A DNA stretch of 64,000 nt from Candidatus Krumholzibacteriia bacterium (GTDB taxonomy: Bacteria > Krumholzibacteriota > Krumholzibacteriia > G020349025), in NCBI GenBank assembly GCA_035649275.1, contig DASRJW010000101.1, positions 39,473 through 103,472 on the forward strand. Reading direction: 5' to 3'. The notes under the pieces were generated by a model that was given only the letters and a program-made list of their open reading frames with translations, ran no database searches and was not told the DNA's origin. The translations under genes were made by a program, and so were the position numbers. Shown here piece after piece: positions 28,041-56,090 of this stretch (position 1 is the first letter of the stretch; each line of letters opens with the position of its first letter).

Positions 28041-28113
28041 GGTGGAAATCAGAGCAGGGGAGACCGGTGGAAATCGGAGGTGGGGAGACGGGTGGGAATC
28101 GGAGCAGGGAGAA
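28041..28113. repeat. tandem direct repeat, ~25-bp unit x3 (GGTGGRAATCRGAGSWGGGGAGAC)
   Basis: units begin at 28041, 28066, 28091; non-coding, immediately after AddA-like stop. Confidence 0.6.
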
Positions 28114-28373: not shown

Positions 28374-29756
28374 CTAGTGCGGCTGCTGCTGCTCCTGCTG
28401 CTGCTGCTGTTGCTGCTGCTTCTGCGAGTCCTGGATCTGACGCAGCTCCTCGCGGTTGAGCACGGTGAGCTCGACGCGACGGTTGCGCGAGCGGCCCTGC
28501 TCGTCCACGTTCGAAGCCACGGGCAGTTCCTCGCCATAGCCGTGCACGCGCAGCTGCGAGCTGCTGATCTGCGGGAACTTCCACAGCAGATAGTCCGCCA
28601 CTGCCTGAGCGCGGCGCTCGGACAACTTGGCGTTCGTCGCGTTGCTGCCCCGCGAATCGGTGTGGCCGCCCACCTCGATGCGCAGCTGCGGCCAGCGCGA
28701 CAGCACCTCGCCGGTCTCGTCGAGGACGGCGAAGCTGGAAGGATCCAGCTGCGCGCTGCCGGTGATGAAGTTGACTCCCTGCAGGCGGAGCTTGCCGGTG
28801 TCGAGCATCTCGTACTCGAGCTGGGAGATCTTGCAGCCCGAGGCGTCGACGCGCGTACCCGCCGGCGTGTCCGGGCAGTTGTCGAGGCCGTCCACCACGC
28901 CGTCTTTGTCCCCATCGGTGGGACAACCGCGGGCGTCCACGACCGCGCCGGCCACGGTGGCGGCGCACACATCGATGCCGTCGAAGACGCCGTCGCGATC
29001 CGCGTCGGCGGGGCAGCCGGAACCATCCACGCTGGCTCCCGCCGGCGTGGCGCTGCACAGATCGAGGCCGTCCCAGATGCCGTCGCTGTCGCCGTCGGTC
29101 GGGCAGCCCTTGGCATCCACGGTGGCGCCGTTCGGCGTCGAGGCGCAGAGATCACGGTTGTCGGCCACGCCGTCACCGTCGATGTCGCCATGCTTGCGGG
29201 CGAAAGGCAGAACGAGACGCGCGCCGATGGCGGTGTTCTGCATCACGTTGTTGGTGCCGCTGCTGCGCGTGCCGAGCATGAGCTGCCAGGCCTCGAGGCG
29301 CACACCGAGGCCGCTCGAGCCCACGATCTTCAGGCCTCCGCCGATCTGGGCGAAGGGATCCTGGATGGCGCCTGCCGCGTCGGTGCTCATGTCCTCGGCG
29401 TAACCGCCGCCGATGGTGATGAAGGGCCGGACGTGCGCGTGGCTGGTGAGATCGAGGGAGAATCCCCCGCTCACCATCCCCAGGTCCCGCTGCACCGGCT
29501 CGACGGTGGTGGGGAGCTCGAAGCGCGACCAGCCGCCCTGGGCCTCGAAGGCGATCCGCGGCGACAGGGCGATGCCGAGCCGCGCCCCGACCAGGGGCGA
29601 AACACGTTCGGTGAAGCCGAGCTGCTCGTCCACCACGAGTGCACCGGCATACGGGCTGAATTCGAGGTTCACCCTCTCGATCCGCGCCGCGGCGCTCGAA
29701 ACACCGAGCAGCGCGCAGCCGGCCAGAGCGAGAAGGATCCGGGTGCTCTTGTTCAT
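28374..29756 (-). CDS. OmpA family protein with thrombospondin type-3 (TSP3) Ca-binding repeats and C-terminal polyQ tail
   Basis: signal peptide MNKSTRILLALAGCALLG; four DxDxDGxxDxxDxC repeats (DIDGDGVADNRDLC etc.); OmpA C-domain GHTDSRGSNATNAKLSERRAQAV; ends QKQQQQQQQQEQQQPH. Confidence 0.85.
   Translation of the reverse strand: MNKSTRILLALAGCALLGVSSAAARIERVNLEFSPYAGALVVDEQLGFTERVSPLVGARLGIALSPRIAFEAQGGWSRFELPTTVEPVQRDLGMVSGGFSLDLTSHAHVRPFITIGGGYAEDMSTDAAGAIQDPFAQIGGGLKIVGSSGLGVRLEAWQLMLGTRSSGTNNVMQNTAIGARLVLPFARKHGDIDGDGVADNRDLCASTPNGATVDAKGCPTDGDSDGIWDGLDLCSATPAGASVDGSGCPADADRDGVFDGIDVCAATVAGAVVDARGCPTDGDKDGVVDGLDNCPDTPAGTRVDASGCKISQLEYEMLDTGKLRLQGVNFITGSAQLDPSSFAVLDETGEVLSRWPQLRIEVGGHTDSRGSNATNAKLSERRAQAVADYLLWKFPQISSSQLRVHGYGEELPVASNVDEQGRSRNRRVELTVLNREELRQIQDSQKQQQQQQQQEQQQPH
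28381..28422. repeat. CTG/CAG trinucleotide tract (~14 units) encoding polyQ
   Basis: gctgctgctgctcctgctgctgctgctgttgctgctgcttctg on plus strand. Confidence 0.8.
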
Positions 29757-49407: not shown

Positions 49408-50112
49408 GTGTGCGTGCTGATCGTGGGTGTGCGCTGGCTTGAGGATCTGCCCTTGGTGGTGGCGGCGAGCCGTGACGAGGCCTACGCCCGTCCGGCTACG
49501 ACGCCGGCCGCCGCCGTCCTCGAGGGCATGCGCGTCCTGCGACCGCGTGACGAGCAGGCCGGGGGCACGTGGATCGGCACCAACGCCGCCGGCCTCGTGG
49601 TGGTGATCACCAACCGGCGGGATGGCGATTTCGACCCCCGGCGGCGGTCGCGGGGTTTGCTCTGCAGCGAGGTGCTGGCGCAGCCCGACGGCGCTGCTGC
49701 CGCCCGCCGCCTGGAGCAGGGGCTGGAGCGCGAGCTCTACAACAGCTTCAACCTCTTGATCGCCGATCCGAGCGCGGTGCGCCTCGCGACCTGGAACGGC
49801 GACCTGCAAACAGTGTCCTTGGGCGCGGGAGCGCATGTGCTTTCGAATGAGCACGTCCTCGGCGAACTCGTCCTCTCCGAGCTCCAGTCTCTCCCGGTGG
49901 CTCACGGTCCGGACGTGCGCGAGCTGCTGCTCGGCCTCCTGGCCAGCCACGTGCCCCGGGATGCGCGGGGCTTTCGTATCTGCAAGCATGGCGGCACCCA
50001 CGGCACGGTGTCGGCGAGCCTCATCTACCGCCGACGCGACGGGAGCACCCTCATGGAGCACGCCCCGGGCCCGGCGTGCACGACCCCGTTCGCGCTCCAC
50101 GTCCTGCGCTGA
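49408..50112 (+). CDS. NRDE family protein (TANGO2/DUF833-like)
   Basis: (M)CVLIVGVRWLEDLPLVVAASRDE...GGTWIGTNAAGLVVVITNRRD; start GTG 49408 (alternatives TTG 49384, GTG 49399). Confidence 0.65.
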   Translation: MCVLIVGVRWLEDLPLVVAASRDEAYARPATTPAAAVLEGMRVLRPRDEQAGGTWIGTNAAGLVVVITNRRDGDFDPRRRSRGLLCSEVLAQPDGAAAARRLEQGLERELYNSFNLLIADPSAVRLATWNGDLQTVSLGAGAHVLSNEHVLGELVLSELQSLPVAHGPDVRELLLGLLASHVPRDARGFRICKHGGTHGTVSASLIYRRRDGSTLMEHAPGPACTTPFALHVLR

Positions 50113-50443
50113 AGTCCACGTCCGGAGCTGAATCTGCCCCGCTTGCGGAGGGGCACTCCAGGTGCCTGATTCCCCCTCACAGGCCATCGGGGCATGGTCG
50201 GAGCAGCCAAGCGACAGCGCTCGAAGAACCCTGTATCATGGGCTGCATTCGAGTTGCCCCTGACACACGCGCCTGTCGTCCAAGGCACAACGGGCGCGCT
50301 GATCGACGTCTCCGTCCGAGCGCTCTGCCGTCGATGTAAGTATAATTGTGGCAAGCACATACGGTGCGCACAGGAGAGATCCGAGAGGCGGAACTCTCTG
50401 TGCATAGAGACGTCAGACGAGTGCCGTCTTCGGGAGGTCCGAG

Positions 50444-51529
50444 ATGCTTCGATGGATGCAGAAATCCGAAGCGCTGCTCGCTCCAGGGCTTCTCGCCGTG
50501 TGGACCGTCGCCGTGGCAGATCAGGCCGGCGCCGGGGAAGCGGGAGAGGCTGCGGGTGGCGCACCAGTCCCCGAGCTCGCCCAGGACGCGGTGCCGGCAA
50601 GGGACCCCATCGTCGAGTTCACGGTCGACGCGGTCCGCAGCCGGGACGCAGCCTCCGGGTTCACCCCAGGTACGGTCCCGGATGCTCCCGAGAGACCGAG
50701 CTCCTGGTTGTCCCAGCTCACAAGCTCTTCTATGTCCGTGCGCCGGAATGACCCAGGTCCCTGGGCCGCGCCAGGCGCCTCGGAGGCACCGGCCAGCCGC
50801 AGTGCGGTCGGGCGGCGCGAGAGGTTGCAAGGCCCGGGCACGTTCGCTCCGAGCCCGTATGCGCGTAAGACCTGGGGCCCGCCAGTGGACGGCAGCGTGG
50901 TCCTGGAGCATCGCCGTACTCGCACCAGCCTCTACGGTTCCCAACGGGAATCGTATCTGGCGCTGAAAGGAGGCGGCCTGCGCGTCGGCGAGGACAGCGC
51001 CACCGATGGCCTCTTCCTGGGATTCGAAGTGGGCGGATCGTTGCAGAACGTGTTCGAGATCGGCTTCAGCGCCGACTACTACTACCGCAGCACCGACAAT
51101 GTGCTGGTTCTCTCCCAAGCGAATTTCGAGAACCTGCCGCTGCAGGTGGTGGAATCGGATCACACCTCGGCGCACCTCCTGCCGCTGGGCGTGACCTTGC
51201 GGCTGCGGCTGCCGGTCAGCGAGACGGTCTCGCCCTTCGTATCCACCACGCTCTCCTACGAGATGCTGTTCCTGGAGAACGTGGGCGGCGGCGGCACCGG
51301 CGATCCCCTGCTCGACGCGCTGGCCGAGGACGAGACCTTCACCGGTTTCGGTTGGCAAGCGGCGGCGGGTCTCGGCATCCGGCTGGCGCCGGCAGTGGGT
51401 CTGTTCGGAGAAGCGGGATACCATTGGGGATCGCCTTCGCAGGGCTTCCTCATCCAAGGGGTTCCCGTGGACCTGAAGGTGGACATGGACGGCGCCTTCG
51501 TGCGCGGCGGTCTGCGTTTCGACATCTGA
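50444..51529 (+). CDS. outer-membrane beta-barrel hypothetical protein
   Basis: N-terminal signal-like segment; C-half with OmpW/OmpA-barrel-like amphipathic strands ending ...GLRFDI. Confidence 0.5.
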   Translation: MLRWMQKSEALLAPGLLAVWTVAVADQAGAGEAGEAAGGAPVPELAQDAVPARDPIVEFTVDAVRSRDAASGFTPGTVPDAPERPSSWLSQLTSSSMSVRRNDPGPWAAPGASEAPASRSAVGRRERLQGPGTFAPSPYARKTWGPPVDGSVVLEHRRTRTSLYGSQRESYLALKGGGLRVGEDSATDGLFLGFEVGGSLQNVFEIGFSADYYYRSTDNVLVLSQANFENLPLQVVESDHTSAHLLPLGVTLRLRLPVSETVSPFVSTTLSYEMLFLENVGGGGTGDPLLDALAEDETFTGFGWQAAAGLGIRLAPAVGLFGEAGYHWGSPSQGFLIQGVPVDLKVDMDGAFVRGGLRFDI

Positions 51530-51772
51530 TGGCACCGTTGCATCCCCTGACGGTGCCGTCTTCCCCTGACTTGCTCTCGTCCCCTCGGCGGGATCGCTAC
51601 CCCCTGGGTCGCGCCACGTGGGTTCACCGGTAAAGGCCTCCGCGCCAGCCCCGCGGGCCCTCTCCAGCGCACTCCGGGCCGCTGGCTTCGGAACTGGTCC
51701 GGAACTCGCATTGGCCCTACACTGCACTTCGGGTCCTGCCGAGTGAGGAGGCGCTTCGTGCGAGCCACTGCC

Positions 51773-52732
51773 ATGCGTCCCCGCGGCTTCTGTGCCGGCG
51801 TGGATCGAGCCATCGAGATCGTGGATCTGGCGCTGGATCTCTTTCCGCCTCCGCTCTATGTTCGCAAGGAGATCGTCCACAACCGCGCCGTCGTCGAAGG
51901 GTTCCGCACCCGTGGGGTCATCTTCGTCGATTCCCTCGACGAGGTCCCTGAAGGGCGCGTGGTCATCTTCAGCGCCCATGGTGTCTCACCCAGCGTGCGC
52001 GAGGATGCCCAGCGCCGGCGGCTACGTGTCATCGATGCCACCTGCCCCTTGGTGACGAAGGTGCATCTCGAGGTGCGCCGGTTCGTCAAACAAGGCTACG
52101 AGATCTTTCTCATCGGCCATGCGGGTCACGACGAGGTCCTGGGCACAACCGGAGAGGCGCCGGAGCGCATTCATTTGGTGGGCAGCGTCGAGGAGGCCCA
52201 GCGTCTGCAGCTGCCGCGCCATGACAAGCTCGTCTATCTCACGCAGACGACGCTCAGCGTCGATGAGACCCGCGACATCGTCGCCGCCCTACAAGCGCGT
52301 TTCCCTCGGCTCACCGGCCCCCCGAAGGACGACATCTGCTATGCCACCCAGAATCGCCAGGAAGCGGTGAAAGCCCTCGTGGGCGACGGGGCCCAAGTGG
52401 TCCTCGTGCTCGGTTCGGAATCGAGTTCGAATTCCAAGCGCTTGTGCGAGGTGGCCGAAGAAAACGGGGCGCGCGCTTACCTCGTCGATGGAGTGGCCGA
52501 CATCGACCCCTCCTGGCTCGCGGGAGTCGAGCACGTCGGCGTCACTGCCGGTGCATCGGCGCCCGAGCACCTGGTGCAAGAGGTGCTTGCCTGGCTGGCG
52601 GCGCAGGGGGCACAGATCGAGGAGCGCGAGCTCATTCGCGAAGACGTCCAGTTCGGCCTGCCACCGGAGCTCGCCGCCAGCCGCCGTGGCAACGCCCGTG
52701 CCACGGGTGCAGGGACCACACGGGCCCGTTGA
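51773..52732 (+). CDS. ispH: 4-hydroxy-3-methylbut-2-enyl diphosphate reductase
   Basis: MRPRGFCAGVDRAIEIV...ATCPLVTKVH...DICYATQNRQ...; three cluster Cys contexts of IspH/LytB. Confidence 0.9.
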   Translation: MRPRGFCAGVDRAIEIVDLALDLFPPPLYVRKEIVHNRAVVEGFRTRGVIFVDSLDEVPEGRVVIFSAHGVSPSVREDAQRRRLRVIDATCPLVTKVHLEVRRFVKQGYEIFLIGHAGHDEVLGTTGEAPERIHLVGSVEEAQRLQLPRHDKLVYLTQTTLSVDETRDIVAALQARFPRLTGPPKDDICYATQNRQEAVKALVGDGAQVVLVLGSESSSNSKRLCEVAEENGARAYLVDGVADIDPSWLAGVEHVGVTAGASAPEHLVQEVLAWLAAQGAQIEERELIREDVQFGLPPELAASRRGNARATGAGTTRAR

Positions 52733-52742
52733 TCGCCCCGGC

Positions 52743-52800
52743 GCCGGTGAAAGCGTCACAAGCGTTCACCACGGATCCCTGCAGGTGAAAAGCCTCACAA
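52743..52800. repeat. 17-bp imperfect direct repeat pair GGTGAAARGCSTCACAA plus AGCGTTCAC motif copies
   Basis: ggtgaaagcgtcacaag / ggtgaaaagcctcacaat 41 bp apart; AGCGTTCAC also at ~52764 and ~52903. Confidence 0.5.
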
Positions 52801-52950
52801 TTCCGGGCATGGGAAGAGTTTCGCGCGTCGCCTCTCGGGCCGAGGCTTCTGTGGTCCTCCTGTCTACCGCGCTGACTACGCCGGCGACACGGTTCGTCAA
52901 CAGCGTTCACACCTAGGACTCGGGCACGAGCAGCCCCACATTCCTCCACC

Positions 52951-53030
52951 GGCGCGAATCTTCTATCAGGCAAGAATCTTCCTTCCGGCACGAATCCTTC
53001 TGTCCGGCACGAATCTTCCTTTAGAAACGG
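52951..53030. repeat. four tandem ~19-bp repeats with core GGCACGAATCTTCC
   Basis: ggcgcgaatcttct / ggcaagaatcttcc / ggcacgaatccttc / ggcacgaatcttcc. Confidence 0.65.
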
Positions 53031-53066
53031 CGAATGCAAGCCGTGGTGTCGTACCCAGGGGGCCGG

Positions 53067-53116
53067 GTGCACAAAACGAGTGCACGATCACAAGACAGTG
53101 CACCCTTTGAGTGCAC
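53067..53116. repeat. four GTGCAC palindromes in 50 bp incl. duplicated GAGTGCACGA
   Basis: gtgcac at ~53067, 53080, 53098, 53111; strongly over-represented for a 70% GC genome. Confidence 0.6.
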
Positions 53117-53142
53117 GAACCTCCGGCAGTGGAGCCTGAACC

Positions 53143-53251
53143 GAGCGCTCACTGTTCTCCATCGGAGTCGCGGACCGAGCGTGCCAGACCTCTCGTTGTT
53201 TTCCGCTCTCTCGGGCCGGGACTCGGAGAGAGCGCTCACCGTTCTCCGGCA
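53143..53251. repeat. 18-bp direct repeat GAGCGCTCACYGTTCTCC x2 (contains GAGCGCTC palindrome)
   Basis: copies at ~53143 and ~53229, 86 bp apart. Confidence 0.6.
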
Positions 53252-53466
53252 CCTGAGCGCTGTCCGAGGGGCAGGGTGTAAGCGACGTCTGGTGGTGGGG
53301 GTGACGAGGGAAGGGAAACTGTAGCGCTGAGCGCAGAATGTGCTCAACAAGGGACGAAGGGCCGGCGCGGAGCAGAGGCTGGCCGAGGAAATGACGTGCG
53401 CCGGCCGCCTGCAGTACCGGGGGCGACTCGAGTGGCGCTGCGGTGGCCTCGTTGGGCTCCGCCCGA

Positions 53467-55905
53467 CTAGGCTTTCTCTGCCTGTTCCACGGCTTCGCGG
53501 AGCCGGCGGAGCCGGGTGTCGCGCTCGCGGACGAAGCGCTCGATGCCCTGCAGGAGCCAGCGCGGCGACAGGTGCGCTTCCTCGACGATTTCCTCGACAG
53601 AGCCACCGGTGCGCCAGCGGTCGTCCCAGTCGGGCGTCATGGCGTACTCCGCTGCGATGCGGTGCGGGATCCAGTCCGTGAGGGTGCGCCGGCCACGGTT
53701 GGCGACCACCATGGAGTCCATCCACTCGCTGGCGGAGAGGACGCTCTCCTGGTAGCGCTTGGACTCGGACCAGAACAGTTGCGGCGAGATGGCCGCGACG
53801 ACCTTGACGTTGAGCTTCTCCTGCGCCAGGTCCGGGAGGATGCGTACCAAGTTCGCCGTCGTCGACGTGCCGCTCACGATGACCACACCGCGCTGCGGCT
53901 GCCCCGGATGGTAGTCACGCAGCACATAGGCGCCGCGCGCTGCGGCGGTGTACGACGGGATCCCCAGAGCGGCGCGGTCGGGGATCTCGATGGCAGGCCG
54001 CGTCAGATGCAGCGCCAGGATGGGGGCGCCATGGCGGAGGCCCGCGGCGATGGCCACGGGCACCTCGTTGTGTTCCCACGGGTGCAGGTCGACGACCTGC
54101 ATGTCCGGGAAGAGCTGGGTCACGTACGGTTCGTAGATGCCGAAGTGCGTGCGCGAGTCTTCCGCCGTCTCGGGACCGGAGTGGCCGGCCACCCAGAGCA
54201 CCTTGCCGAGGCGGATCTGGCAATCCTGGACGACCTGACTGAACAAACGCATGGGGCCGTACTTGAGATAGACGAAGGATCCGTAGGTCGAGCAGGCGCT
54301 CATGAAGCCCGACCATTCTTCGAACGGCCGCTCCGATAGGTTGGTGGAAGCGATGCCGCAAGCGATGCCGGCGTTGGTGAACTCGGTGATTTCTTGCGGC
54401 AAGAGCACGCCCTCGGGATTCGATGTGCGCTCGTACCAGCCGTAGCCGGCGAAGCTGCCAAAACCCTTGGCGAAACCGGCGATGTTGGTGGAATCGGCGA
54501 GGTCCGCCGACATGGCCAGGAACAGCGGGCGCCCGTATTTCGCCTGCGACCAGGCGTTCACCCACGCGCCCCACTTGGCGAGGGCCGCCCGGTTCGGCGC
54601 CTTGGCACCGGGCTTCTCGAACAGCTCCTGGGGATAGCGCTCGTAGTCCGTGAGCTCCGGATCCGTCGCCGGGTTGCCGGGCCGGGGGAAGCGGAAGCTG
54701 GGGATGGACTCGGGCACCGAATCTCCCAGCTCCACCAGGCGGTCGGCCATGTAGCGCACGCACTCCACGTCGTCGTGCAACACCTTCATGACCACCGTGA
54801 AGTTGTGCACCACTTGCTGGCGCCAGGCCTCGGCGCTGGCGGGCACGGGGTCGTTCATCCCGGCGAACTCCACGCCGTACTTGGCGGCGAACTCTTGCCG
54901 TCCCTTCCAGTACAGCTCGCTGTTGGGCTTGTGCGGCGTGCCGTGGGACTTGGCGTCGAGCACGCCGTAGCCCCGCCCCTTGCGGGTACGGAAGTAGCAG
55001 ACGCTGGGGACATGCTGCGGGTTGTCGCCGTGCACGGTCTCGAGCAGACCGCGGGTCAACTCCGGCCAGTCCATGCCCTGCTCGACGCCGATGACGCGCC
55101 AGCCGCTGGCGCCGAACCAGTCCGCCGGCGAACCGTGCACGACGCTGCTGGCGGGGCGCTCGTCGATGCCGAAGTCGTTCCAGTCCACGCAGTACACCAG
55201 GTTGTCCAGCCCCAGGCCCCAGGCGGAGTTGCGGGTCTCGTGGGCGGCGCCCGGGGTCAGGCCGCCTTCGCCCTCCAGGGCGAAGACGCGGACGCCCTCG
55301 GCACCGGCGCGCTTGAGCGCCATGGCGATACCGGCGGCCGGCGGGGACCCGTGCCCCGAAGGACCGGTGTTCGCCTTGACGAAGAGCGTCTTGCCCTCCA
55401 TCTCGGCGTGGCCCGGGAGGCCGCGGTTGCGGCGGAAGAGCAGCAGGTCCTCCCAGTGGAGAGCGAACTCCTCGGACTTCGGGATGCGATAGCGCGCCTC
55501 GCCGGTCTCCCGGTGGAGGACGCGGAGCGACTCGGAAAGGACGGCGAGCATGGAGTACAGCAAGGGGGTGCAGTGCCCGGCCACGAGGACGAAACGGTCC
55601 CCGAAGCGCTTCTCCGGATGGCGCAGGTCCCAGCGCATGACGCCGCCCAGGAGCAGGACCAGCATCGCATGCACCTTCGAGCGCGAACCGCCGGGATGAC
55701 CGCTCTGGCGGTAGTTGAGCATCATGTCGATGCACTGGTCGACGACGTCCTTGATCTTCTCCCAGTGCTGGAAATGCTGTTCCTGCTCGCGCACCAGCGC
55801 GTCGACGCGGGACGAGGAGGTCGTCGAAGGCGCCACGAGGGCTCCTTTCTTCGGTTTCTCGCGCGCACGGGGACCGACCCGGCGCGATCGCAGCGATGAT
55901 GCCAA
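53467..55905 (-). CDS. transketolase-family TPP-dependent enzyme (long 812-aa form)
   Basis: YRQSGHPGGSRS (TK SGHPG motif), TPP-binding GDGxxxE-like region, pyrimidine-binding and C-terminal domains; about 150 aa longer than canonical TK. Confidence 0.75.
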   Translation of the reverse strand: MASSLRSRRVGPRAREKPKKGALVAPSTTSSSRVDALVREQEQHFQHWEKIKDVVDQCIDMMLNYRQSGHPGGSRSKVHAMLVLLLGGVMRWDLRHPEKRFGDRFVLVAGHCTPLLYSMLAVLSESLRVLHRETGEARYRIPKSEEFALHWEDLLLFRRNRGLPGHAEMEGKTLFVKANTGPSGHGSPPAAGIAMALKRAGAEGVRVFALEGEGGLTPGAAHETRNSAWGLGLDNLVYCVDWNDFGIDERPASSVVHGSPADWFGASGWRVIGVEQGMDWPELTRGLLETVHGDNPQHVPSVCYFRTRKGRGYGVLDAKSHGTPHKPNSELYWKGRQEFAAKYGVEFAGMNDPVPASAEAWRQQVVHNFTVVMKVLHDDVECVRYMADRLVELGDSVPESIPSFRFPRPGNPATDPELTDYERYPQELFEKPGAKAPNRAALAKWGAWVNAWSQAKYGRPLFLAMSADLADSTNIAGFAKGFGSFAGYGWYERTSNPEGVLLPQEITEFTNAGIACGIASTNLSERPFEEWSGFMSACSTYGSFVYLKYGPMRLFSQVVQDCQIRLGKVLWVAGHSGPETAEDSRTHFGIYEPYVTQLFPDMQVVDLHPWEHNEVPVAIAAGLRHGAPILALHLTRPAIEIPDRAALGIPSYTAAARGAYVLRDYHPGQPQRGVVIVSGTSTTANLVRILPDLAQEKLNVKVVAAISPQLFWSESKRYQESVLSASEWMDSMVVANRGRRTLTDWIPHRIAAEYAMTPDWDDRWRTGGSVEEIVEEAHLSPRWLLQGIERFVRERDTRLRRLREAVEQAEKA

Positions 55906-56090
55906 ATGGCGCCCGAGCGGTCAAAAGCTTTGCCGGGTGCGGTATTGCCTGGTGCAGAGGCTGACTGTTACACTGCAGTACTCCCGCGCCAGCGGTCGAA
56001 GGAACGAGCCGGAGCGCGGAACGGCTCCGCCACCGCGGTGGAGAACGACACCGCGCTGGAGAACGACGAGGATCGCGCCAGGGTCCGCGC

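What the first reader, a model, noticed from the sequence alone, without database searches (positions are those of the whole stretch)
52733..53466. 734-bp repeat-packed intergenic region between convergent ispH and transketolase-family genes
Convergent gene ends need no promoter, yet this spacer is about 10x longer than the typical spacers in this window and is lower in GC. It carries at least four distinct repeat families.
- A 17-bp direct repeat pair (GGTGAAARGCSTCACAA) with extra AGCGTTCAC copies.
- Four tandem ~19-bp units with core GGCACGAATCTTCC.
- Four GTGCAC palindromes within 50 bp, including a duplicated GAGTGCACGA.
- An 18-bp direct repeat GAGCGCTCACYGTTCTCC x2 with an internal 8-bp palindrome.

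No convincing ORF is present; the candidates 53034..53324 and 52632..53072 are repeat-driven. This looks like an unannotated non-coding element: clustered regulator/nucleoid-protein binding sites, one or more sRNA genes, or the relic of an insertion.
Basis: seen in the sequence. Interest (0 to 1): 0.55.

Follow-up and report, generated by a model that had tools for sequence, protein, structure and literature searches.

The report
Recent orphan non-coding insertion with minisatellite
The long repeat-rich gap between ispH and a transketolase-like gene is real. It is about 740 bp of non-coding DNA of unknown origin that entered one soil Krumholzibacteria species recently, varies in length between strains, and shows no sign of a job, so it is most likely an ordinary insertion relic.

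Summary
A 734-bp spacer lies between convergent ispH (51758..52732 +) and a 789-aa transketolase-like gene (53467..55836 -). It carries the four repeat families described, at more than shuffle expectation.

Comparative data decide the interpretation. Every relative outside the species has a 28-85 bp spacer. This includes a relative whose flanking DNA is 93-94% identical (28 bp). All eight same-species contigs from other assemblies carry the long spacer.

Window 52720-53460 (741 bp) therefore replaces about 35 bp of ancestral sequence and is a recent insertion.

- It is non-coding. There is no GC3 signal, and 1-, 2- and 49-bp indels between strains break every ORF. No Pfam or PHROGs hit was found, and no homologue among 5.8 billion proteins.
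- It matches no Rfam family and folds no better than shuffles.
- It has no other copy in the window, in 1.3 Mb of relatives' loci, or in plasmid and phage collections. Seed matches in viral contigs did not extend beyond the seeds.
- Variant density is 2-5 times that of the flanks.
- A 49-bp unit is present in 1, 2 or 3 copies in different strains (spacer 734, 782 or 831 bp).

Best reading: an orphan insertion relic in which replication slippage makes local repeats. A mobile or regulatory role is not excluded, but nothing found here supports it. Interest is low.

The parts
51758..52732 (+). ispH (4-hydroxy-3-methylbut-2-enyl diphosphate reductase), 324 aa, GTG start. Its last four codons and its stop codon lie inside the lineage-specific segment.
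   Evidence: NCBIfam NF002189 at 445 bits. The exact 324-aa product is found on four other contigs. The C-terminus is TRAR* here but THSR* in L168 and P0003.
53467..55836 (-). 789-aa thiamine-diphosphate transketolase-like gene, convergent with ispH.
   Evidence: Pfam Transketolase_N at 5e-18. NCBIfam transketolase models are hit far below their cut-offs. The 789-aa gene call comes from same-species contigs.
52720..53460 (.). Lineage-specific inserted segment of 741 bp in this strain. It replaces about 35 bp of the ancestral 3' end of ispH plus the spacer. The left 35 nt or so may be diverged ancestral sequence, in which case the insert proper is about 52758-53453.
   Evidence: Homology with L168 (93-94% DNA identity in the flanks) stops at 52719 and resumes at 53461. 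L168 has a 28-bp spacer. All outgroups have spacers of 41-85 bp.
52747..52800 (+). Direct repeat pair GGTGAAAGCGTCACAA / GGTGAAAAGCCTCACAA. The second copy is a 9/10 match to TGTGA-N6-TCACA.
   Evidence: The CRP-like match is the only one in the window, with 0.71 expected by chance. A strain SNP falls inside it at 52793.
52895..52910 (+). Second copy of CGTCAACAGCGTTCAC. Its partner is at 52754-52769. The AGCGTTCAC core is exact at 52761 and 52902.
   Evidence: (family D6).
52949..53021 (+). Four tandem 18-19-bp units, consensus CCGGCACGAATCTTCCTT. Copy number is the same in all strains.
   Evidence: TRF period 18, 3.8 copies, 79% matches.. Alignments A2 and A6.
53067..53118 (+). Two copies of GTGCAC-N5-GAGTGCACGA, 31 bp apart, giving four GTGCAC palindromes in 50 bp. 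No strain variant falls in 53030-53142.
   Evidence: Four of one palindromic hexamer in 50 bp was reached by 1/300 shuffles and 0/85 window pieces. Local fold z is -2.4 to -2.9, the most stable window but not significant over 58 tests.
53098..53116 (-). Terminator-like hairpin GTGCACTCAAAGGGTGCAC followed by TGTCTTGTGA on the minus strand, about 350 nt downstream of the transketolase-like stop codon.
   Evidence: one site found, 0.8 expected in shuffles, so this is a consensus match only.
53143..53160 (+). First copy of the 18-bp repeat GAGCGCTCACTGTTCTCC, containing the palindrome GAGCGCTC.
   Evidence: (family D1). Strain L084 has lost its first G.
53177..53229 (+). Minisatellite unit (GAGCGTGCCAGASCTCTCRTTGTTTTCCGCTC...GGAGA). 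The window has one copy, the terminal 53-nt variant. Other strains carry one or two further 49-bp copies inserted at 53176/53177.
   Evidence: Alignments. Spacer lengths are 734 bp (window), 781-782 bp (L079, L080, L081, L084) and 831 bp (L169, L170). Self-comparison.
53204..53234 (.). Perfect 9-bp inverted repeat CGCTCTCTC / GAGAGAGCG with a 13-nt loop, at the 3' end of the minisatellite unit. Strain L081 has a 2-bp deletion in the 3' arm.
   Evidence: Read from the sequence.
53230..53247 (+). Second copy of the 18-bp repeat, GAGCGCTCACCGTTCTCC.

Best explanation
The spacer is a recent, species-specific insertion of about 700-740 bp of orphan non-coding DNA. It landed in the short terminator-type spacer between convergent ispH and a transketolase-like gene.

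The insertion overwrote the last four ispH codons and supplied a new stop codon. It has since been carried as largely unconstrained DNA. Its 'repeat families' are most simply explained as products of replication slippage and local tandem duplication in neutral sequence.

That process is still running. A 49-bp unit is present in 1, 2 or 3 copies in different strains.

Shown: absence from all relatives outside the species, presence in all sampled strains, non-coding nature, copy-number polymorphism, and elevated variant and indel density.

Inferred: the direction of the event (insertion rather than repeated loss), slippage as the source of the repeats, and lack of function.
For: (1) Phyletic pattern. 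Spacers outside the species are short: 28 bp in L168 (flanks 93-94% DNA identity, transketolase-like protein 98%), 45 bp in L083, 56, 41 and 51 bp in L001, L006 and L004, and 85 bp in L085. The long spacer is present in the eight other same-species contigs, which come from ENA, JGI, NCBI and Logan assemblies.

(2) Boundaries. Homology to L168 stops at 52719 and resumes at 53461. The ancestral IspH end THSR* is kept in L168 and in the 96%-identical P0003, against TRAR* here.

(3) Non-coding.
- No frame shows the genome's GC3 of 0.8-0.95.
- Indels of 1, 1, 1, 2 and 49 bp between strains hit every ORF of 40 aa or more.
- Six-frame Pfam and PHROGs scans are empty.
- A concatenated six-frame query found nothing among 5.8 billion proteins.

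(4) No RNA signal. There is no meaningful Rfam match at E<=10. Whole-region fold z is -0.21 on the plus strand and +1.75 on the minus strand. The best 100-nt window has z = -2.85 among 58 tests.

(5) Relaxed constraint. After removing alignment artefacts there are 4-11 variants per kb in the spacer against 1.6-4 per kb in the flanks. Variants fall inside repeat families 1, 2 and 4 and in the hairpin.

(6) Ongoing slippage. The 49-bp unit has 1, 2 or 3 copies, with exchange of variants between units. Other short tandem duplications sit in neighbouring intergenic regions of this genome.
Against: About 63% of the insert is unique sequence that slippage cannot create, and its source was not found. 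The phrase 'orphan DNA' therefore describes ignorance of its origin.

The insert is fixed in every sampled strain from several habitats. This is compatible with neutrality but also with usefulness.

The 113-bp stretch 53030-53142, which holds the GTGCAC cluster, carries no variant in nine sequences. About 3 would be expected, giving P of about 0.05.

The four tandem 18-bp units and the two GTGCAC-N5-GAGTGCACGA units look like protein-binding arrays and keep a constant copy number.

Strains differ by only 0.1-0.9%, so tests of constraint have little power.
Confidence: 0.6

Rival explanations
1. It is one copy of a non-autonomous mobile or modular repeat element, comparable to a MITE, a pneumococcal BOX element or a hairpin-targeting IS derivative. 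It would have inserted into the terminator hairpin between convergent genes, and other copies would exist elsewhere in this genome.
For: A sudden, clean gain of about 700 bp at a hairpin-containing convergent spacer. A modular build in which an 18-bp repeat flanks a variable number of 49-bp units, resembling the boxA-(boxB)n-boxC layout as I recall it. Palindromes sit at the left junction: ACGGGCCCGT at 52720-52729 and CCGGCGCCGG. A possible 5-bp direct repeat CGGTG occurs at 52745 and 53440, read from the sequence.
Against: No terminal inverted repeats of 12 nt or more. The candidate target duplication is only 5 nt and at chance level. No second copy of any module was found in the 64-kb window, in 1.29 Mb of relatives' loci, or in plasmid or phage collections. 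Viral contig matches do not extend beyond the seeds. A family of 300 or more copies per genome is excluded by the window alone, since P(0) is about 0.01. A low-copy family is not excluded.
Confidence: 0.15
2. It is a horizontally acquired regulatory or sRNA module. The 18-bp array and the GTGCAC units would be protein-binding sites, or the segment would give long 3' UTRs or sRNAs for ispH and the transketolase-like gene, with the GTGCAC hairpin acting as the new terminator.
For: Repeat arrays exceed shuffles. There are no polymorphisms in 53030-53142. A terminator-like hairpin with a U-rich tail lies on the minus strand at 53116..53098. The segment is fixed in all strains. The insertion removed the ancestral spacer hairpin, so some new terminator must now serve (inference).
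Against: No Rfam match, no excess structure and no sigma-70-like promoter. The CRP-like site is at chance level. The motifs occur nowhere else in the window, so there is no regulon signal. Variants hit the other repeat families. Close relatives live without the segment.
Confidence: 0.12
3. The whole spacer grew in place from the ancestral 28-56-bp spacer by many rounds of local duplication and divergence, with no foreign DNA involved.
For: All repeat families are strictly local. One is still changing copy number. The GAGCG-initiated units at 53143, 53177, 53230, 53255 and 53329 look like decayed copies of one ancestor.
Against: Only about 37% of the segment is covered by recognisable repeats. 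The relative at 93-94% DNA identity has no intermediate state. Building about 450 bp of unique sequence by duplication and decay within that short divergence is implausible.
Confidence: 0.07
4. It is a fragment of a plasmid or phage replication origin, with iterons and inverted repeats, integrated into the chromosome.
For: Four tandem 18-19-bp direct repeats lie next to the lowest-GC patch of the segment (57% at 52900-53099).
Against: No rep gene or protein remnant. No similarity to 72,556 plasmids or 50,697 phages. Viral contig matches are seed-only.
Confidence: 0.04

Closest known systems
Intergenic VNTR / minisatellite loci such as mycobacterial MIRU-VNTR (comparison from my own knowledge of the family)
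   Same: Tandem head-to-tail units of about 50 bp in an intergenic region. Copy number differs between strains of one species (1, 2 or 3 copies). The likely origin is replication slippage.
   Different: MIRUs are a dispersed family with dozens of loci per genome, and they often overlap the stop and start codons of operon genes. Here only one locus is known, and it sits between convergent genes inside a larger orphan insert.
Pneumococcal BOX elements (boxA-boxB(n)-boxC) and similar modular intergenic repeats (from my own knowledge)
   Same: A modular layout with a central unit of about 45-49 bp of variable copy number, flanked by other short conserved modules. Non-coding and intergenic.
   Different: BOX elements occur at more than 100 copies per genome and are 150-400 bp long. 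No second copy was found here. The segment is 741-838 bp long and mostly unique sequence.
REP/BIME clusters and MITEs
   Same: They favour the 3' ends of genes and convergent spacers. They are palindrome-rich and non-coding.
   Different: No REP-like unit recurs in the window. There are no terminal inverted repeats and no clear target-site duplication.
Plasmid iterons / CRP-type operators (TGTGA-N6-TCACA)
   Same: Four direct repeats of 18-19 bp, and one 9/10 match to the CRP consensus at 52784-52799.
   Different: No rep gene and no plasmid homology. The CRP-like match is expected by chance in the window and lies between gene ends rather than upstream of a promoter.

Membership tests
VNTR / minisatellite | Head-to-tail tandem units of 10-100 bp | tested here: met
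   49-bp units are directly adjacent in L079, L080, L081, L084 (2 copies) and in L169, L170 (3 copies).
VNTR / minisatellite | Copy number polymorphic among strains of one species | tested here: met
   Spacers of 734, 781-782 and 831 bp in contigs whose flanks are 99.1-100% identical.
MIRU-like dispersed VNTR family | The same unit present at many loci in the genome | tested here: not met
   No other copy in the 64-kb window or in 1.29 Mb of relatives' loci. The rest of this genome could not be searched.
MITE / non-autonomous transposon | Terminal inverted repeats | tested here: not met
   No inverted repeat joins the two ends. The longest inverted repeats are 10-11 nt and internal.
MITE / non-autonomous transposon | Target-site duplication flanking the element | tested here: inconclusive
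   Only a 5-nt CGGTG at 52745 and 53440, read from the sequence. The junction replaces about 35 bp rather than leaving the target intact.
MITE / REP / BOX repeat families | Multiple copies per genome | tested here: inconclusive
   Zero further copies in 64 kb. This excludes a high-copy family but not a low-copy one. The whole genome was not available.
Known structured RNA (any Rfam 15 family, including group II introns, riboswitches and large ncRNAs) | Covariance-model match | tested here: not met
   cmscan of 52000-54200 at E<=10 returned only a 15.9-bit ASdes hit inside ispH.
Structured RNA in general | Folding energy below dinucleotide shuffles | tested here: not met
   z = -0.21 (+) and +1.75 (-) for the whole spacer. 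The minimum over 58 windows of 100 nt is -2.85.
Protein-coding gene or pseudogene | Reading frame kept among strains, codon-position GC bias, homologues | tested here: not met
   Frame-breaking indels. GC3 is 0.53-0.75 against 0.8-0.95 in real genes. No Pfam, PHROGs or protein hit.
Plasmid oriV / iterons | Iterons next to a rep gene; homology to plasmids | tested here: not met
   Tandem 18-bp units are present, but there is no rep remnant and no plasmid match.
CRP/FNR-type operator | TGTGA-N6-TCACA upstream of a promoter, recurring as a regulon motif | tested here: not met
   One 9/10 match at 52784-52799, with 0.71 expected per window and 49/100 shuffles giving at least one. It lies between convergent gene ends.
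Intrinsic terminator | GC-rich hairpin followed by a U tract | tested here: inconclusive
   One site on the minus strand at 53116..53098, with 0.8 expected in shuffles. Function is not testable here.

The most novel reading that the evidence does not exclude
The segment is a copy of an undescribed non-autonomous, modular element (18-bp flanking repeats, a variable 49-bp core, an iteron-like array and GTGCAC hairpins). It would insert into terminator hairpins between convergent genes in Krumholzibacteria. Alternatively, it is a horizontally acquired module that now supplies the terminator and 3'-UTR regulation for ispH and the transketolase-like gene.
Probability: 0.12. Interest if true: 0.45.

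Novelty: new member of a known kind. Interest (0 to 1): 0.2.

Why it matters
As it stands the finding matters little. It is a well-documented example of a bacterial spacer gaining about 0.7 kb of orphan DNA within less than about 6% sequence divergence and then behaving as a minisatellite.

It has two practical uses. The 49-bp VNTR (1-3 copies) is a ready strain marker for this uncultured soil Krumholzibacteria species in metagenomes. The locus also warns that repeat-rich intergenic DNA can look regulatory while being recent and apparently unconstrained.

It would matter more only if further copies or a transcript were found.

Tried and rejected
- Rfam with permissive thresholds: nothing. ARAGORN over the window: no tRNA or tmRNA.
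- Promoter and terminator scan: no promoter, one chance-level terminator.
- Coding remnant: ORF Pfam and NCBIfam scans, six-frame Pfam and PHROGs scans, a concatenated six-frame query against 5.8 billion proteins, and GC by codon position. All negative.
- tblastx against relatives' loci gave only high-GC compositional noise.
- Source of the DNA: blastn against plasmids and phages, against 1.29 Mb of related loci, and three pattern scans of viral contigs whose hits did not extend beyond the seeds. None found.
- REP-like or regulon motif: mismatch-tolerant searches for every unit in the window. Only local copies were found.
- Replication origin or terminus: cumulative GC skew over the window shows no turning point at this locus.
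- The metagenome scan with the IspH C-terminal half found no same-species contig; the best hit was 86%. It therefore gave no diverged copy of the insert.
- The 96%-identical IspH (P0003, read set SRR5262245) has no contig on record.
- Three exact-product look-ups failed because of wrong start codons. The GTG start at 51758 then worked.
- A literature search for Krumholzibacteria found nothing about this locus.
Full report
**What is there**

The window is 68.6% GC. Its closest genomes are uncultured Krumholzibacteriia / Latescibacterota MAGs.

ispH is identified by NCBIfam NF002189 at 445 bits. It runs 51758..52732 on the plus strand. The GTG start at 51758 was confirmed because the exact 324-aa product is on record in other assemblies.

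A 789-aa thiamine-diphosphate transketolase-like gene runs 55836..53467 on the minus strand. The two genes converge, and 52733-53466 (734 bp) lies between their stop codons.

**Check of the observation**

All four repeat families exist at the stated places.

- GGTGAAAGCGTCACAA and GGTGAAAAGCCTCACAA start at 52747 and 52784. AGCGTTCAC is exact at 52761 and 52902.
- Four tandem 18-19-bp units span 52949-53021 (TRF period 18, 3.8 copies).
- GTGCAC occurs at 53067, 53080, 53098 and 53111. Read more accurately, this is the 21-bp unit GTGCAC-N5-GAGTGCACGA twice, 31 bp apart.
- GAGCGCTCACYGTTCTCC occurs at 53143 and 53230.

Against 300 dinucleotide-preserving shuffles the region has 10 shared 10-mer pairs where 0.5 are expected. 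It also has an 18-nt one-mismatch repeat where 11.8 nt is expected; neither value was reached in any shuffle.

Against 85 other 734-bp pieces of the same window it sits in the upper tail rather than alone. Those values were reached by 2/85 and 1/85 pieces. Only the GTGCAC cluster is unmatched.

GC is 63.6%, lower than the window but within the 62-69% of other intergenic regions. The spacer is 2.4 times the next-largest local gap and far longer than the 10-45 bp gaps that are common here.

**The decisive evidence is comparative**

The convergent pairing of ispH with the transketolase-like gene is conserved in relatives, but the spacer is short everywhere outside the species.

| Locus | Spacer | Relatedness to the window |
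|---|---|---|
| L001 | 56 bp | IspH 81% identical |
| L006 | 41 bp | IspH 81% identical |
| L004 | 51 bp | IspH 77% identical, complete chromosome CP070763 |
| L083 | 45 bp | IspH 88% identical |
| L085 | 85 bp | IspH 84% identical |
| L168 | 28 bp | transketolase-like protein 98% identical, flanking DNA 93-94% identical |

Homology between the window and L168 runs up to 52719 and resumes at 53461. Window 52720-53460 (741 bp) therefore stands where L168 has 35 bp.

The ancestral IspH C-terminus ...THSR* is kept in L168 and in a 96%-identical IspH (P0003). The window has ...TRAR*. The event thus rewrote the last four codons and provided a new stop.

Every contig that carries the identical or 99%-identical proteins has the long spacer. 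These are L079, L080, L081, L082, L084, L169, L170 and L171. They come from ENA, Logan, JGI and NCBI assemblies of different samples.

One gain on the branch leading to this species is far more parsimonious than five or more independent losses. The feature is also no assembly artefact, since nine independent assemblies agree.

**Nature of the inserted DNA: not coding**

- No reading frame shows the genome's codon signature. GC3 is 0.53-0.75 here against 0.8-0.95 in real genes.
- Strains differ by indels of 1 bp (52934), 1 bp (53143), 2 bp (53226-53227), 1 bp (near 53272) and 49 bp (at 53176/53177). These interrupt every ORF of 40 codons or more.
- Six-frame translations hit nothing in Pfam or PHROGs.
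- A concatenation of all open segments of 40 aa or more found no protein at E<=0.001 among 5.8 billion. This also suggests that gene callers did not call a gene there in the other assemblies.

**Nature of the inserted DNA: not a recognisable RNA**

The only Rfam match at E<=10 in the 2.2 kb searched is a 15.9-bit chance hit to ASdes inside ispH, outside the spacer.

The whole region folds no better than shuffles, with z = -0.21 and +1.75. The best 100-nt window, which holds the GTGCAC palindromes, reaches z = -2.85 among 58 tests.

No sigma-70-like promoter was found. One terminator-like hairpin lies on the minus strand at 53116..53098, at the chance expectation.

**Nature of the inserted DNA: no visible source and no second copy**

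- No unit recurs elsewhere in the 64-kb window.
- There is no similarity in 1.29 Mb of loci from relatives.
- There is none in 72,556 plasmids or 50,697 phages.
- Three motif scans of viral contigs gave only seed-length chance matches.
- The one CRP-like site (52784-52799, 9/10 to TGTGA-N6-TCACA) is what a 64-kb window yields by chance: 0.71 expected, and 49 of 100 shuffles gave at least one.

**How the segment behaves in the population**

A 49-bp unit, GAGCGTGCCAGASCTCTCRTTGTTTTCCGCTCCCGTCGGGTGGGGGAGA, is tandemly repeated.

- The window has only the terminal variant unit (53177-53229). This unit ends in a perfect 9-bp inverted repeat, CGCTCTCTC...GAGAGAGCG.
- L079, L080, L081 and L084 have one extra unit.
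- L169 and L170 have two extra units.
- The resulting spacers are 734, 781-782 and 831 bp.

The 18-bp repeat GAGCGCTCACYGTTCTCC looks like a shortened relative of the 5' part of this unit (family D1). The whole stretch 53143-53350 therefore appears to be built from older and younger copies of one motif.

After removing alignment artefacts caused by the duplicated unit, variant density in the spacer is about 4-11 per kb. The flanking, mostly coding, DNA of the same contigs has 1.6-4 per kb. That is roughly what unconstrained sites would show.

The variants fall inside repeat families 1, 2 and 4 and inside the hairpin. Only 53030-53142 is variant-free, which is marginal: about 3 variants would be expected.

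Short tandem duplications also occur in neighbouring intergenic regions of this genome. Slippage in non-coding DNA therefore seems common here.

**Interpretation**

The best-supported explanation (confidence about 0.6) is an insertion relic. About 0.7 kb of orphan non-coding DNA entered the terminator-type spacer between two convergent genes after this species split from its relative at 94% DNA identity. It became fixed, and it now drifts, generating and losing local repeats by slippage.

That it is a recent lineage-specific insertion is well supported (about 0.9). That it has no function is an inference from the absence of signals and from weak population data.

The rivals are these:
- a low-copy mobile or modular repeat element (0.15);
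- an acquired regulatory, 3'-UTR or sRNA module whose arrays bind proteins (0.12);
- growth purely in place by duplication (0.07);
- an integrated origin fragment (0.04).

What would refute each is stated in the structured fields.

**Comparison with known kinds**

The polymorphic 49-bp array meets the definition of a VNTR or minisatellite: tandem units, with copy number variable among strains. It resembles a MIRU-type locus or the boxB core of pneumococcal BOX elements. The defining multi-locus distribution of those families was not found in the sequence available.

MITE features are absent (terminal inverted repeats) or inconclusive (target duplication). Tests for REP/BIME, group II intron, riboswitch, iteron-origin and CRP-operator membership fail or are at chance level.

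I therefore file it as a new member of a known kind, a strain-variable minisatellite inside an orphan intergenic insertion. It is not a new class of element.

**Verdict**

Interest is low (0.2).

The most novel reading still open is an undescribed terminator-targeting modular element or an acquired regulatory module. I give it about 0.12 probability and moderate interest if true.

Noticed in passing
window 53467-55836 (-); L001, L004, L006, L083, L168: The 789-aa 'transketolase' scores far below every NCBIfam transketolase cut-off (107.6 bits against 488). It belongs to a large family spread over Chloroflexota, Acidobacteriota, Latescibacterota and others. One cluster in that family is annotated as a DXS N-terminal-domain protein. 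Its tail-to-tail pairing with ispH, a MEP-pathway gene, is conserved across Krumholzibacteria/Latescibacterota. It may be a distinct TPP enzyme rather than a true transketolase.
   Followed up: partly
window 28041-28109, 50096-50132, 51543-51585, 56031-56067: There are other short tandem duplications of 18-25 nt, about 2-3 copies each. By the approximate gene map and the L079 gene calls they lie in or at the edge of intergenic regions. One is upstream of ispH and one is in the divergent region upstream of the transketolase-like gene. They suggest frequent slippage in this genome's non-coding DNA, or direct-repeat operators.
   Followed up: no
window 28957-29153: A 90-bp unit repeated about 2 times at 72-75% identity. 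It lies inside a large minus-strand ORF (28374..29756) and is presumably a repeated protein domain.
   Followed up: no
window 52686-52732; P0003, P0004, L168: The IspH C-terminal tail after ...ELAASRR is hypervariable among close relatives: GNARATGAGTTRAR, GSARATGAPPTHSR, RSTRATGAGSTHSR, and VADRR or shorter in more distant relatives. The tail therefore seems dispensable, which may be why an insertion that clipped its last codons was tolerated.
   Followed up: partly
window 50444-51529; L083, L085, L086, L087: The gene upstream of ispH is an outer-membrane beta-barrel-like gene in this species. In relatives with 84-88% identical IspH it is a Peptidase_M48 gene or an unannotated gene. This side of ispH was therefore also rearranged.
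   Followed up: no
window 52800-53400: Plus-strand GC skew flips inside the insert, from C-rich (-0.12 to -0.15 at 52800-53100) to G-rich (+0.17 to +0.25 at 53200-53500). The switch lies near the GTGCAC hairpin cluster. This is unexplained. It could reflect a composite origin of the inserted DNA.
   Followed up: no
L169 and L170, position equivalent to window 52746: A G-to-T change in two strains turns CCGGTGAAAGCGTCACA into CCTGTGAAAGCGTCACA. This gives perfect TGTGA/TCACA half-sites but with a 5-nt instead of a 6-nt spacer. It is probably coincidental.
   Followed up: no
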